From a virus (Duplodnaviria; Heunggongvirae; Uroviricota; Caudoviricetes), in IMG/VR virus record IMGVR_UViG_3300028991_000027, positions 1 through 10,266 of that record: DNA of 10,266 bases; one strand, written 5' to 3'. Every line of letters starts with the position of its first letter. Position 1 is the stretch's first letter. Both the position numbers and the translations under genes were made by a program. The notes below the pieces were generated by a model. That model saw only the letters and a list, made by a program, of their open reading frames with translations. It searched no databases and was not told the origin of the DNA. Of the stretch, positions 1 to 6,884 are shown one piece after another.

Positions 1-496
1 CGAAAGTAAGCAATCAGCGGGGCCATCACATGCTGTTTCAGTGCCCTGCCCTTCGCCTCACAGCCATCATCTTTCGGGCGATACGGCCCCTGATAATGTT
101 CCGCGAACAGAATGCGCTCTGTGGCCGGAAAATACGCCCGCAGGCTTTCCTTGTTACACCCGTTCCAGCGTCCGGGCGGCTTTGCCCAGATGATATGGTT
201 CAGCACGTTAAACCGCTCACGCATCATGATTTCGGTGTCAGATGCCAGGCGATGCCCACAGAACAGGTATAGACTTCCTGCAGGTTTCAGCACCCGCCAG
301 AACTGCGCAAGACACTGGTCCAGCCACTTCAGGTAATCTTCATCACCCGCCCACTGGTTATCCCAGCCTTCGGGTTTCACTTTAAAGTATGGTGGGTCTG
401 TGACTATCAGATCGACAGAGTTTTCCGGTAAGGTCTGGATACCAGGCAATCAGCGTTGATTAACTCACAACTGGATATTTTTACAGTGTTAGCCAT
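1..496 (-). CDS. DNA methyltransferase, beta-class N6-adenine/N4-cytosine type; 3' end beyond window; N-terminus interrupted by an apparent -1 frameshift
   Basis: Minus-strand translation from ATG at 496-494 gives MANTVKISSCELINADCLVSRPYRKTLSI then TGA at 409-407. The -1 frame opens after a TGA at 452-450 and reads LPGIQTLPENSVDLIVTDPPYFKVKPEGWDNQW... with no stop down to position 1. DPPY (motif IV) near the N-terminus, preceded by an xxDCL and SVDLIVTDPPY context, is the beta-class arrangement. Not in the ORF track because it runs off the edge. Confidence 0.6.
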
Positions 497-1008: not shown

Positions 1009-1830
1009 CTATCTGGTCACCTTTTTCAGTTGTTGTTCTGCCCATGCTTCTTCAATATCAAACTGCACCACCAGCGTATCGTAAAAACGTTTAACTGTTT
1101 TTTTCCATGTATCAAGAGATATGGCATCGGTTACATTACATATGGCATTAAATGCCTCCGTTGAAGGTAATCTTTCATAGCCACGCCCACCACAACGCTG
1201 ACAGTTTCTGAAAACCGGCACACCCTGTTTTTCCGACTCTTCACGATGAATGGCAACACCGCGCCCACGACAATCTTTACAGGCTGTGGAAACCTCCCCC
1301 TTTCCGCTACACTCCGGACAGGCAACTTTTACCACCTCCCTGACTTTTTTCCATTCCTCCCAGTAAGACGGATACACGCCTTTTGTGCACTTTGCCCATA
1401 CTGGCGGCTTACCATCCGGATACTGGATCTTGTTTGTAAAAATCTCGCTTTCAATAAATTTTTTTCCGTGACAGCAGGGGCACTGTTTTTTGCTCGCCGC
1501 GCTACGGGCATAATCTTCAAACGCATACGAAGCCATAATGCGCATCACTGCCGGTTTTATTTCTGCCGGGAGTTTTCTTAACGCCGCCACGCAATCACAC
1601 CGACTGAGTGCATATTCTGTCAGCAATTCTGTTGCCCGCTCTCTGTCATTCATACTAATGCCCATTTTCCCAAGGAACGCAGAAAACCCCATCTCAGCCC
1701 GATTCTGTGTCATGCCCTGCGCTGCCATCACATCAGTGATACTCAGCGCATCTTTTGACGTCGAGGCAGAGGCATCTGTCAGGCCGGGGGATTTTGGTGA
1801 ATAGTACTTCGGTAAATCTTCCAGTTTCAT
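1009..1830 (-). CDS. late-gene antiterminator Q-like protein (273 aa) with four DnaJ-type CxxCxGxG zinc-finger repeats
   Basis: Complete ORF. Lies between rusA (ATGA stop/start overlap at 1827-1830) and the PR'/tR'-like pair. Cys repeats CPCCHGKK, CPECSGKG, CKDCRGRG, CQRCGGRG at aa 117-217. The Q assignment is mainly positional. Confidence 0.55.
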   Translation of the reverse strand: MKLEDLPKYYSPKSPGLTDASASTSKDALSITDVMAAQGMTQNRAEMGFSAFLGKMGISMNDRERATELLTEYALSRCDCVAALRKLPAEIKPAVMRIMASYAFEDYARSAASKKQCPCCHGKKFIESEIFTNKIQYPDGKPPVWAKCTKGVYPSYWEEWKKVREVVKVACPECSGKGEVSTACKDCRGRGVAIHREESEKQGVPVFRNCQRCGGRGYERLPSTEAFNAICNVTDAISLDTWKKTVKRFYDTLVVQFDIEEAWAEQQLKKVTR

Positions 1831-4107: not shown

Positions 4108-4263
4108 TTACTTCTCAGATTCGTAGTCTACGAAGACAGCGACCTCCGTCTGGCCGGTTCGGATTCGTACCTCGCAGAGGTCTTTCCTCGTTACCAGTGC
4201 CGTCACTATGACGGTTAAACAGATGACGATCAGGGCGATTAACATCGCCTTTTGCTGCTTCAT
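4108..4263 (-). CDS. hok: Hok/Gef-family type I toxin (51 aa membrane peptide)
   Basis: Translated by hand from the minus strand: MKQQKAMLIALIVICLTVIVTALVTRKDLCEVRIRTGQTEVAVFVDYESEK. It is shorter than the ORF-track cutoff. Hydrophobic N-terminus and the TRKDLCEV...GQTEVA core match the Hok family. Confidence 0.9.
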   Translation of the reverse strand: MKQQKAMLIALIVICLTVIVTALVTRKDLCEVRIRTGQTEVAVFVDYESEK

Positions 4264-4636: not shown

Positions 4637-4924
4637 ATGGGTCACGTCTATTTTGACACATTAAAATTTGCCGAAGCACTGGAAAAAGCTGGCATGCCAG
4701 CTGAACAGGCGCGCGCCATTTCCTCCGCAATAAAAGATGCCCATGAGGCAATTGAAGTTGCAACTAAAAATGACCTTCACTACGCAAGCTCAGAACTTAA
4801 GCGCGATATTCTGTCAATTAATGAGAAAATTGACCACCTCATATTTCAAGTAACTTTTCGGTTAGGGGTAATAATTTCTATATGTATAGTAGTTGTATTT
4901 GCCATAATTAAAATGAATATGTAA
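4637..4924 (+). CDS. small coiled-coil protein with C-terminal transmembrane helix (DUF1640-like, 95 aa)
   Basis: Complete ORF with a good SD. Protein MGHVYFDTLKFAEALEKAGMPAEQARAISSAIKDAHEA... ends in the hydrophobic LGVIISICIVVVFAIIKM. Opposite strand to all neighbours, with its own terminator. Family name is from memory. Confidence 0.65.
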   Translation: MGHVYFDTLKFAEALEKAGMPAEQARAISSAIKDAHEAIEVATKNDLHYASSELKRDILSINEKIDHLIFQVTFRLGVIISICIVVVFAIIKMNM

Positions 4925-5000: not shown

Positions 5001-5456
5001 TCAAAGAAATATTAATTGCTTCATTCTGCATGACATTACCGCCCTTTCTGTCGCCCTCATGATATATTTAAGGTGTAGACACGCCTCCGCCATTCTGATA
5101 ATCGGGTCTTCTGAAGTCATCTTTTCTGGCGAATCGCAGTCAGCACCACATTCAGTAATGCGTTCATAATCAAAACGAGCGGTGATTTTATGTGCACCAA
5201 TCATTTGCGTAAGCGCATCTGTCAACTCTGCAATGCGCTTATCTTTGGCTTCCAACTCGCCCGGCAGCACCAGTGCTACCTTTAGATTAAAGGTAGCAAT
5301 GAAGTCCGCGTTATTTTTCAGAATATGGTGCACAATAAGTACACCATTGAGTTTTACCTTGTAACCTCGTGCGCCACAATGCGGTCTATATGAGCTCCAG
5401 TCTCCCCCACGTTGCTTTTTCTGAAGCGTCACGCATCTTCCGGTAATTAATTTCAA
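5001..5456 (-). CDS. hypothetical protein (up to 151 aa); last gene of the minus-strand operon before the moron island
   Basis: ORF 5001..5456. The start is a TTG overlapping the DUF4406 stop (TTGA), with AGGAGA 10 nt upstream; the first in-frame ATG is far downstream, so the true start is uncertain. Six Cys and an R-x6-H near the C-terminus (RMAEACLH). No family recognised. Confidence 0.5.
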   Translation of the reverse strand: MKLITGRCVTLQKKQRGGDWSSYRPHCGARGYKVKLNGVLIVHHILKNNADFIATFNLKVALVLPGELEAKDKRIAELTDALTQMIGAHKITARFDYERITECGADCDSPEKMTSEDPIIRMAEACLHLKYIMRATERAVMSCRMKQLIFL

Positions 5457-5752
5457 TCACTGGTTGTCTCCTGGAAAATAACTGCATGCCCCAATTTCTC
5501 CGCCAGTGCCAGCTCTGCCTTAGCGCCCGCTGACCGCTGCCAGCCTTTCAGCATGTAAATCGCATCCACACAACGAATCATTGCCATGCAAATATCCATG
5601 TAATGTGGCTGAGTCAGCCCGTCCGGAAGTACTGCCGGGTTTAAAACGGTATGCCCTTCCCGTTTCAGCGCTTCTTCCGCCTTGTGAAACGCATCACGGT
5701 TGAAATTTTCATATCCCGTCATCGGACCAGCGATATAAATTCTCACCCTCAC
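5453..5752 (-). CDS. DUF4406-family protein (nucleoside 2-deoxyribosyltransferase-like fold, 99 aa)
   Basis: GTG start preceded by AGGAGG at 8 nt. N-terminal RIYIAGPMTGYENFN...VLNP matches the remembered DUF4406 signature. Confidence 0.7.
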   Translation of the reverse strand: MRVRIYIAGPMTGYENFNRDAFHKAEEALKREGHTVLNPAVLPDGLTQPHYMDICMAMIRCVDAIYMLKGWQRSAGAKAELALAEKLGHAVIFQETTSD

Positions 5753-6003
5753 TCCATCACCTCCTGAAAATTACCCTGACAGAACGCCAGTACACGCTGC
5801 ATGACTTCGCTATTTCGGCACTCACAGCAAATTATGTTCTTATGCCTGTCATAGCGGCGTATTTCTCCGTCTGGTAACTTTCGAATCAATGTCTGGTCAG
5901 TTGTTTTCTCCGGTGTCTTACGCCATACGCGATACACCTGTTCAGATGCAAAAACACCGTATTTACCGGACATGTATAAATCGCCACAAGCCAGTACATC
6001 CAC
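5749..6003 (-). CDS. hypothetical ORF, possibly the C-terminal part of a frameshifted gene whose N-terminus is ORF 5886..6143
   Basis: ORF track. Its stop overlaps the DUF4406 GTG start (GTGA), but neither the GTG at 6003 nor the ATG at 5973 has a recognisable SD, and it overlaps ORF 5886..6158 by about 118 nt in another frame. Confidence 0.3.
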   Translation of the reverse strand: MDVLACGDLYMSGKYGVFASEQVYRVWRKTPEKTTDQTLIRKLPDGEIRRYDRHKNIICCECRNSEVMQRVLAFCQGNFQEVME

Positions 6004-6143
6004 AAGGCAACGTCTGACTGAATGCCAGCCTGTCCCGTCGCTCTCTCCAGTTGTGATATCGTCATGCGTTCATTTTTGCGTACCAACCCGATAATTCGGG
6101 CCTTCAGTTCTTCACGCTGTTCGTGTGTAAAAGGTTTCGCCAT
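5886..6143 (-). CDS. small hypothetical protein with HTH-like N-terminus (85 aa from ATG 6143)
   Basis: ATG at 6143 is preceded by GGAGG and follows the upstream stop by 15 nt. N-terminus MAKPFTHEQREELKARIIGLVRKNERMTISQLERATGQ looks like real protein; the C-terminal 40 aa are W/Y/C/H-rich and resemble out-of-frame translation. Confidence 0.4.
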   Translation of the reverse strand: MAKPFTHEQREELKARIIGLVRKNERMTISQLERATGQAGIQSDVALWMYWLVAIYTCPVNTVFLHLNRCIAYGVRHRRKQLTRH

Positions 6144-6158
6144 AAGCGCCTCCGGCAA

Positions 6159-6884
6159 TCACTTTTCCGACACAATACGACCGGATGAATCGACAATCTG
6201 CCGAACAATATCCCGGTGCTTGTTCAACTCCCGCAACGCGGCACAGACTCGTTCCCACTTCTGGACATCACTTTTCGCCCGGCGCAGCTCGCGGTTAGCC
6301 ACATGCAGCGATGGTAGAATCAGGTCATCTGCTTTCGTTTCGGTGACCGATGGCTGTAACTTCACAATGTCTTCCACGATTTCTGTTTTCATTTCTTCCT
6401 GTGTCGTCGTTTCCTGGACTGGTAACGCAACACCTGCTGGCTGAGGAAAGGCTTTACCATCGGTTTCCGCTACGGATGCCGCTTCCGGCTCTGCCGGTAA
6501 ATCAGCGCCCGGTATGCAGTAACGAAATTTACCGCCCTGATTCACGCGAATCAGACGCCCTTTGCTGATTGCCATTGCCAGCGATGAATTCGCCCGGCGG
6601 GAGGTAATTCCGAACATCAGTGCCAGTTCATCCGCCGTTTGTGGGCCATGTTGTTCAATCGCCTCTGTCAGCATTTGCGCTGTCACTTTCGGTACCGGTG
6701 ACACCGGTTCACTTTCACCAGCCTGAGTCAGCCACCACATCGACCCCTTGTTATCCGCTTCACCGCGGCGCTTCAGTTTCCACAGTTCGTTGACCGCCTC
6801 TTCACGGCTGATTCCAAGGCGCGATGCCACTACCTGTGAAGAGGCTTTTTTCAGTGCTTTCAGTGCGTCAAATACGGTTTCCAT
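6159..6884 (-). CDS. phage protein with two N-terminal winged-helix-like domains, acidic linker and C-terminal coiled coil (241 aa from ATG 6884)
   Basis: ORF 6159..6902; the ATG at 6884 with GGAGG upstream is preferred over the TTG at 6902. Two HTH-like segments ([27 protein letters not shown] and [28 protein letters not shown]). Sits directly after the DnaC-like gene. Function unknown. Confidence 0.6.

What the first reader, a model, noticed from the sequence alone, without database searches (positions are those of the whole stretch)
5749..6158. Two overlapping ORFs that may be one frameshifted gene
ORF 5886..6143 has a strong ribosome-binding site and a convincing N-terminus but a tail that looks like out-of-frame translation. 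ORF 5749..6003 looks protein-like and ends in a GTGA overlap with the next gene, but has no usable start signal. Their 118-nt overlap contains a short direct repeat CTTGTGG...CTTGTGG near 5990-6012. The simplest reading is one gene of about 130 aa with a frameshift, either a mutation, a sequencing error or ribosomal slippage. Together with the methyltransferase frameshift this hints at a decaying prophage or a lower-quality assembly.
Basis: seen in the sequence. Interest (0 to 1): 0.45.

Follow-up and report, generated by a model that had tools for sequence, protein, structure and literature searches.

The report
Frameshifted ren-like prophage gene (DUF977)
The two overlapping reading frames are the two halves of one ordinary 131-residue prophage gene (DUF977, a relative of phage lambda's ren) broken by the loss of one base; the same broken copy turns up in many independent E. 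coli assemblies, so it is a real mutation and not a sequencing error.

Summary
All genes here are on the minus strand. ORF A (6143..5886) and ORF B (6003..5749) are real and overlap by 118 nt. They are fragments of one DUF977 gene. Pfam places ORF A residues 1-38 on model positions 1-38 and ORF B residues 2-80 on positions 49-134. The closest complete E. coli genomes (UTAK-6 and O111:H11 8D) match at 99.8% and carry one intact 131-aa "DUF977 family protein". The only difference inside the gene is one missing G in GACGGGA[G]CAGG, between + coordinates 6032 and 6033. That is 26 nt or more upstream of the CTTGTGG repeat, which homologs share and which is a chance 7-mer.

The exact 85-aa frameshift product is on record for 20 contigs from NCBI drafts, an ENA metagenome and Logan read assemblies. 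All ten loci fetched are 100% identical across the gene, although their immunity and replication modules differ. The deletion is therefore heritable.

There is no slippery heptamer and no stimulatory RNA structure. The family is single-ORF (129-143 aa) down to 52% identity. The break falls in the turn of a predicted winged helix-turn-helix, so it probably inactivates the protein. Lambda Ren is a distant homolog at the same genomic position. This is an ordinary prophage pseudogene of low interest.

The parts
5749..6143 (-). DUF977 / ren-like gene, 395 nt instead of 396: a pseudogene caused by a 1-nt deletion
   Evidence: It aligns to intact 396-nt CDSs of E. coli UTAK-6 (WP_001118162.1) with one gap and no other difference inside the gene. 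The repaired protein matches PF06163 over its full length at E 3e-66.
6032..6033 (-). Site of the deletion. One G (minus strand; C on the plus strand) is missing between these two bases: GACGGGA[G]CAGGCTGG.
   Evidence: Alignment A1 and the indel listing against L003. The site is not in a homopolymer or a repeat.
6033..6143 (-). Authentic N-terminal coding part, codons 1-37 (MAKPF...ERATG): helix 1 and helix 2 of the predicted winged helix
   Evidence: Pfam DUF977 positions 1-38 match ORF A residues 1-38. In the structure model, H7-24 and H29-36 lie before the break.
5886..6032 (-). Out-of-frame tail of ORF A: 48 nonsense codons plus TGA
   Evidence: It has no family match beyond residue 38.
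5749..6030 (-). Authentic frame for residues 39-131 plus stop: recognition helix, wing and the invariant C-terminal motif LPDGEIRRYDR..NIIC.ECR.S..MQRVLAF. ORF B (6003..5749) is its part downstream of the first start codon.
   Evidence: This frame is open from 6069 and reads GWHSVRRCLVDVL... exactly as the intact homolog does. ORF B residues 2-80 match DUF977 positions 49-134. The family alignment is A2.
6149..6153 (-). Shine-Dalgarno GGAGG of the DUF977 gene, 5 nt upstream of ATG 6143
   Evidence: Read from the sequence. The start agrees with RefSeq annotation of the homolog.
5749..5752 (-). GTGA stop/start overlap between DUF977 and the downstream DUF4406 gene (5453..5752). That gene's own AGGAGG lies at 5765..5760.
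   Evidence: The same 4-nt overlap is annotated in UTAK-6.
5984..6006 (-). CTTGTGG ... CTTGTGG 7-mer direct repeat: a chance feature unrelated to the frameshift
   Evidence: It is present unchanged in intact homologs. Repeated 7-mers occur in 98% of shuffles.

Best explanation
The region is one gene of a Rac-like lambdoid prophage of E. coli. It belongs to Pfam family DUF977 (annotated elsewhere as LygF or 'Ren-like exclusion protein') and sits in the early-right operon after the replication initiator, the DnaC-like loader and DUF1627/YdaW. A real, heritable deletion of one G between + coordinates 6032 and 6033 shifts the frame after codon 37. Shown: translation from the strong ATG 6143 start gives an 85-aa product, 37 authentic residues plus 48 nonsense residues, ending at TGA 5888..5886. 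Shown: the remaining 93 authentic codons survive only as an ORF with no ribosome-binding site. Inferred: the break lies in the turn between helix 2 and the recognition helix of a predicted N-terminal winged helix-turn-helix, so the product lacks the recognition helix, the wing and the invariant C-terminal motif and is most likely non-functional. Inferred: the downstream DUF4406 gene loses its stop/start coupling but keeps its own AGGAGG, so polarity is probably mild. Inferred: the gene is accessory, because the broken allele persists on several mosaic prophage backgrounds; lambda ren is likewise non-essential (my own knowledge).
For:: the best complete-genome matches are 99.8% identical over 502 versus 501 nt and are annotated as one 131-aa DUF977 protein; the single gap is at GACGGGA[G]CAGG. 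ORF A residues 1-38 match DUF977 positions 1-38, ORF B residues 2-80 match positions 49-134, and the repaired protein matches 1-134 at E 3e-66; this is the only 1-nt indel in 6.8 kb aligned at 99.1%; the exact 85-aa product is indexed in 48 blocks of the collection and recorded on 20 contigs (six NCBI draft assemblies from different projects, an ENA metagenome and Logan read-level assemblies). All ten fetched loci are 100% identical to the window over the 395-nt gene. Their immunity and replication modules differ, with at least four immunity types. Two further variants carry the same frameshift plus one substitution each; the carriers and the intact UTAK-6 allele share an identical block of about 1.5 kb apart from the deletion, so the event is recent; the family is single-ORF, 129-143 aa, down to 52% identity., and PMC2686095: the N-terminal 76 residues model as a winged helix at pLDDT about 90, with H29-36 and H40-53 flanking the break; lambda Ren is a homolog (hhalign probability 96.8%, E 3e-10) at the equivalent position after the replication genes.
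Against: No reads were inspected for this particular assembly. No expression data exist. Loss of function is inferred from a predicted structure whose C-terminal half has low confidence (pLDDT 42-68). No DUF977 protein has been characterised experimentally as far as my two literature searches show. None of the 5,426 complete RefSeq E. coli genomes carries the deleted allele, so it is a minority allele known only from drafts, metagenomes and read assemblies.
Confidence: 0.9

Rival explanations
1. A sequencing or assembly error in this record: the real genome has the G and an intact DUF977 gene.
For: The lesion is a single-base indel, the commonest type of assembly error. The window has a second frameshifted gene, the methyltransferase. 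No complete RefSeq E. coli genome shows the deletion.
Against: The identical deletion, with 100% identity over the whole gene, is in at least ten loci from independent projects and methods, including Logan assemblies made directly from reads and a metagenome. The exact product is on 20 contigs. The site (GGGA-G-CAGG) is not a homopolymer. The rest of the window shows no other 1-nt indels over 6.8 kb against a 99.1% identical relative.
Confidence: 0.03
2. Programmed or leaky -1 ribosomal frameshifting restores a full-length protein from the deleted allele, for example by P-site slippage of tRNA-Gly from GGA (6035..6033) back onto GGG (6036..6034). That would give the full protein with A38T.
For: A -1 shift is the direction needed, and the downstream frame is open from 6069. 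The deletion leaves G_GGA exactly at the junction, with a GGAG about 8 nt upstream (read from the sequence). The allele persists on several prophage backgrounds.
Against: ORF A contains no canonical X_XXY_YYZ heptamer anywhere. The 83 nt downstream fold no better than shuffles (z = 0.26). The ancestral and overwhelmingly common state is an unshifted single ORF, so no recoding signal has had reason to evolve. From general knowledge, P-site-only slippage without stimulators is typically around 1% or less.
Confidence: 0.03
3. Two genuine, separately functional overlapping genes: an N-terminal 85-aa protein and a C-terminal protein of 74-84 aa carrying the invariant motif.
For: ORF B retains the whole invariant C-terminal motif. 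GenBank annotators once called the 74-aa piece a protein in E. coli 93.0624 (EIH68606.1). The allele has not accumulated further damage.
Against: Homologs across the family are single ORFs. ORF A's tail has no family match. ORF B has no Shine-Dalgarno sequence or promoter, and gene callers skipped it in all ten carrier loci. The lack of further damage is explained by recency, since the flanking block of about 1.5 kb is also identical.
Confidence: 0.03

Closest known systems
Pfam PF06163 (DUF977) / PHROG 142, annotated as 'DUF977 family protein', LygF or 'Ren-like exclusion protein' in E. coli, Shigella and Salmonella lambdoid and Rac-like prophages (e.g. WP_001118162.1 of E. coli UTAK-6; LygF of phage Rac-SA53)
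   Same: Apart from one base, the nucleotide sequence is identical to WP_001118162.1's gene. The position after the DnaC-like loader and DUF1627/YdaW is the same. The 4-nt overlap with the next gene is the same.
   Different: The window copy lacks one G and cannot encode the full protein. It is a frameshifted pseudogene allele.
Phage lambda Ren (NP_040633.1, 96 aa), the non-essential gene after O and P that lets lambda escape Rex exclusion (function from my own knowledge)
   Same: It is a distant homolog: BLASTP 28% identity at E 6e-6, and hhalign probability 96.8% at E 3e-10, covering the winged-helix region and the ..ECR.S..M.RVLA motif. It has the same slot directly downstream of the replication genes.
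   Different: Lambda Ren is 35 residues shorter and only 28% identical. No exclusion phenotype has been tested for any DUF977 protein, so the 'Ren-like' function is an annotation transfer.
Other decayed DUF977 copies in E. coli prophages
   Same: E. coli OkiPb01712 carries a PGAP-flagged DUF977 pseudogene at the same position. O103:H2 12009 has a 126-aa C-terminally shortened copy.
   Different: Those have different lesions: a CGA to TGA nonsense change at codon 88 and a premature end. Neither has the 1-nt deletion seen here.

Membership tests
Pfam PF06163 (DUF977) | Match to the family HMM above the gathering score (22.1 bits) | tested here: met
   ORF A scores 61.9 bits, ORF B 124.8 bits and the repaired protein 221.9 bits (E 3.3e-66) over model positions 1-134.
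Pfam PF06163 (DUF977) | One uninterrupted ORF of about 129-143 aa covering the whole model | tested here: not met
   The window copy is split after codon 37 by a 1-nt deletion. Intact relatives are 129-143 aa. It is therefore filed as a pseudogene of the family, not a functional member.
Pfam PF06163 (DUF977) | Invariant C-terminal motif LPDGEIRRYDR..NIIC.ECR.S..MQRVLAF | tested here: met
   The motif is present in ORF B (LPDGEIRRYDRHKNIICCECRNSEVMQRVLAF), but it is no longer joined to the N-terminal domain.
Pfam PF06163 (DUF977) | N-terminal winged helix-turn-helix fold | tested here: met
   AlphaFold model of a 99%-identical intact homolog: residues 1-76 have pLDDT about 90, with H-H-H-beta-hairpin topology. 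All top Foldseek PDB hits are winged-helix DNA-binding domains, though with weak E-values of 9e-3 or more. PMC2686095 reached the same conclusion. The window copy is interrupted in the turn between helices 2 and 3.
Lambda Ren-like exclusion proteins (PHROG 142) | Sequence homology to lambda Ren | tested here: met
   PHROG 142 at E 4.7e-43. Lambda Ren against the DUF977 alignment gives hhalign probability 96.8% at E 3e-10, and BLASTP gives E 6e-6.
Lambda Ren-like exclusion proteins (PHROG 142) | Position immediately downstream of the phage replication genes, on the same strand | tested here: met
   Window order is HTH_36 initiator, IstB/DnaC-like loader, DUF1627, DUF977. Lambda order is O, P, ren.
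Lambda Ren-like exclusion proteins (PHROG 142) | Confers resistance to Rex-type exclusion | not testable with these tools
   This needs phage plating assays. No paper on DUF977 or LygF function was found.
Programmed -1 ribosomal frameshift sites | Slippery heptamer X_XXY_YYZ in the upstream frame, within the stretch where both frames are open | tested here: not met
   There is none in ORF A; only the partial G_GGA at the deletion site.
Programmed -1 ribosomal frameshift sites | Downstream stimulatory RNA structure | tested here: not met
   The 83 nt downstream have MFE -19.3 against a shuffle mean of -20.0, z = 0.26.
Programmed -1 ribosomal frameshift sites | Two-frame arrangement conserved in homologs | tested here: not met
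   Homologs are single-frame ORFs.

The most novel reading that the evidence does not exclude
The deleted allele may not be simply dead. It sits on at least four different immunity and replication backgrounds with no secondary damage. It could therefore be a selected loss or modulation of a Ren-like winged-helix protein in cryptic prophages. Alternatively it could be kept partly active, either by low-level -1 P-site slippage at the G_GGA created at the junction or by independent expression of the invariant C-terminal domain.
Probability: 0.05. Interest if true: 0.4.

Novelty: already known. Interest (0 to 1): 0.1.

Why it matters
It matters little beyond correct annotation. The locus should be one frameshifted DUF977/ren-like pseudogene, not two hypothetical proteins. 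The case shows that a single-base frameshift in a draft sequence can be told apart from an assembly error by finding the same allele in independent assemblies. There are two mild side interests. DUF977 is a widespread, uncharacterised homolog of lambda Ren with a variable winged helix and an invariant C-terminal motif. A naturally circulating null allele suggests it is dispensable for the prophage.

Tried and rejected
- CTTGTGG direct repeat as the slippage or deletion site: rejected. It is unchanged in intact homologs and is at chance level.
- Low-quality assembly: rejected. There is one 1-nt indel in 6.8 kb against a 99.1% identical relative, and the allele is shared by independent assemblies.
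- Programmed frameshifting: no heptamer and no downstream structure.
- Internal promoter for ORF B: none found.
- NCBIfam scan: no family matched.
- PDB sequence search: only noise, E of 0.17 or more.
- Literature on DUF977, LygF, PF06163 and 'Ren-like exclusion': only a 2009 fold-recognition remark (PMC2686095) and unrelated uses of 'LygF'.
- C-terminal fold: the model is too uncertain there (pLDDT 42-68), so no fold claim is made for that half.
- Pseudogene frequency: I did not quantify what fraction of all E. coli DUF977 copies are pseudogenes, because the hit tables carry no pseudogene flags. I saw only two other damaged copies.

Full report
**Observation.** All genes in this part of the window run on the minus strand. 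The ORF list contains 5886..6158 (-) and 5749..6003 (-).
- In the first, the listed TTG at 6158 is only the first start codon after a stop. The real start is ATG 6143, giving 85 aa.
- The second is 84 aa from GTG 6003.
- The two ORFs overlap by 118 nt.
- ATG 6143 is preceded by GGAGG at 6153..6149 with a 5-nt spacer.
- ORF B ends in a GTGA overlap (5752..5749) with the GTG start of the next gene. It has no Shine-Dalgarno sequence before GTG 6003 or ATG 5973.
- The CTTGTGG repeat is at 6006..6000 and 5990..5984.

The description is therefore accurate.

**What it is.** Megablast of 5700..6200 against 5,426 complete E. coli genomes found 603 genomes covering at least 80% of the query. The two best, UTAK-6 and O111:H11 8D, are 99.8% identical over 502 nt against the window's 501. 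In UTAK-6 the stretch is annotated as a single 396-nt CDS, the 131-aa 'DUF977 family protein' WP_001118162.1. It lies between a DUF1627 gene and a DUF4406 gene, with the same 4-nt overlap.

The alignment shows one difference inside the gene. The window lacks a G in GACGGGA[G]CAGGCTGG, between + coordinates 6032 and 6033. Pfam confirms the reading:
- ORF A residues 1-38 match DUF977 model positions 1-38.
- ORF B residues 2-80 match positions 49-134.
- The repaired protein matches positions 1-134 at E 3.3e-66.

The downstream frame is open from 6069 and reads GWHSVRRCLVDVL... exactly as in the intact protein. The lesion lies 26 nt or more upstream of the CTTGTGG repeat. That repeat is present unchanged in intact homologs. 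It is also unremarkable: the 395-nt gene has eleven repeated 7-mers, and 98% of shuffles have at least one.

**Mutation, error or recoding.** Three lines of evidence favour a real mutation.
- *Assembly quality.* Aligned to UTAK-6, the window is 99.1% identical over 6.8 kb. The only indels are this 1-nt deletion and a 15-nt intergenic one. The assembly is not riddled with indels.
- *Independent occurrences.* The exact 85-aa frameshift product is indexed in 48 blocks of the public collection and recorded on 20 contigs. The ten loci fetched come from six NCBI draft assemblies of different projects, an ENA metagenome and three Logan read-level assemblies. All ten are 100% identical to the window across the 395-nt gene.
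- *Different backgrounds.* The carriers' surroundings differ. There are at least four kinds of immunity region and several replication-gene variants, and flanking divergence is 0.3-2%. Two further variants carry the same frameshift plus one substitution each.

An assembly error private to this record is thus excluded. The deletion is a heritable allele, and its site is not a homopolymer. The intact protein of otherwise identical sequence is on 180 contigs, and the 90% cluster has 498 members, so the broken allele is a minority. Carriers and the intact UTAK-6 allele share an identical block of about 1.5 kb around the gene, which points to a recent event.

Programmed frameshifting has no support.
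- ORF A has no X_XXY_YYZ heptamer.
- The 83 nt downstream fold no better than shuffles, z = 0.26.
- The family is single-frame.

The only residual possibility is inefficient P-site slippage at the G_GGA left at the junction, which would give a full-length A38T protein. This is speculation.

**Family and likely function.** A search of 5.8 billion proteins returned 474 relatives. Full-length ones are 129-143 aa and cover 99-100% of the query down to 52% identity. Their alignment shows a variable N-terminal half and an invariant C-terminal motif, LPDGEIRRYDR..NIIC.ECR.S..MQRVLAF.

AlphaFold on that alignment gives a confident N-terminal domain (residues 1-76, pLDDT about 90). Its elements are H7-24, H29-36, H40-53, a beta hairpin and H68-76, which is a winged helix-turn-helix. 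The C-terminal half is uncertain. [quoted passage not shown] Kinch et al. 2009 (PMC2686095) reached the same fold assignment.

PHROGs places the protein in phrog_142, 'Ren-like exclusion protein', at E 4.7e-43. I tested that label directly. Lambda Ren (96 aa, directly after O and P) aligns to the DUF977 profile with hhalign probability 96.8% at E 3e-10, and by BLASTP at 28% identity, E 6e-6. The match includes the ECR.S..M.RVLA motif. No experimental work on DUF977 was found.

**Consequence of the deletion.** These points are inferred. The frame breaks after Gly37, in the turn between helix 2 and the recognition helix. The product made from the good start keeps only helices 1-2 followed by 48 nonsense residues. 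It lacks the recognition helix, the wing and the invariant C-terminal motif, so loss of function is the most likely outcome.

Ribosomes now stop at 5888..5886, 133 nt before the DUF4406 start. That gene has its own AGGAGG (5765..5760), so polarity is probably mild. Persistence of the allele on several mosaic backgrounds suggests the gene is dispensable for the prophage.

**Context.** The window is the early-right region of a Rac-like lambdoid prophage. In order it carries an HTH_36 initiator, an IstB/DnaC-like loader, DUF1627, DUF977, DUF4406, Ead/Ea22, Hok/Gef, a BOF protein, DUF968, RusA, Q and a methyltransferase. The ten other genes scanned against Pfam all match their families. The methyltransferase at 1..496 (-) is truly frameshifted after residue 18. 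That gives modest support to 'decaying prophage', as do split genes in other carriers.

**Verdict.** This is an ordinary frameshifted pseudogene of a known, uncharacterised prophage gene family. Interest is low.

Noticed in passing
window 1-496 (-), lesion near 441: The N6/N4 DNA methyltransferase is frameshifted after residue 18. The first 18 residues (MANTVKISSCELINADCL) are in one frame and the rest (from LPENSVDLIVTDPPY...) in another, because of a divergent patch 4 nt shorter than in homologs. No complete E. coli genome shares this allele; the best match is 95.5% over 704 versus 700 nt.
   Followed up: partly
window ~3539: A 15-nt deletion relative to E. coli UTAK-6 lies just upstream of the 90-aa hypothetical gene. 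It is intergenic, so it has no frame consequence.
   Followed up: partly
window 1009-1830 (-): The Q antiterminator allele here (273 aa, PF03589 Antiterm) differs from the 229-aa PF06323-type Q of UTAK-6 and of carriers L004-L006. The segment does not align, which indicates a mosaic module swap.
   Followed up: no
L005 3533-4485; L006 9958-10306: Other prophages carrying the same DUF977 deletion have further split genes. In L005 the replication initiator is called as 145 + 172 aa. In L006 RusA is called as 60 + 61 aa. This suggests ongoing decay in this prophage group.
   Followed up: no
alignment A2 (DUF977 family); window 5749-5880 (-): DUF977 proteins combine a variable N-terminal winged helix, whose predicted recognition helix is especially variable, with an invariant C-terminal motif LPDGEIRRYDR..NIIC.ECR.S..MQRVLAF. 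Part of that motif is shared with lambda Ren. The C-terminal fold is not confidently predicted.
   Followed up: partly
L002 1558-1953; L016 1558-1938: Independent damage to DUF977 occurs elsewhere. E. coli OkiPb01712 has a CGA to TGA nonsense codon at position 88 and is flagged as a pseudogene by PGAP. O103:H2 12009 has a 126-aa C-terminally shortened copy.
   Followed up: partly
window 4108-4263 (-) and 4637-4924 (+): A Hok/Gef family toxin gene (PF01848, E 4e-23) sits in the prophage, next to an opposite-strand 95-aa ORF annotated as hypothetical in relatives.
   Followed up: no
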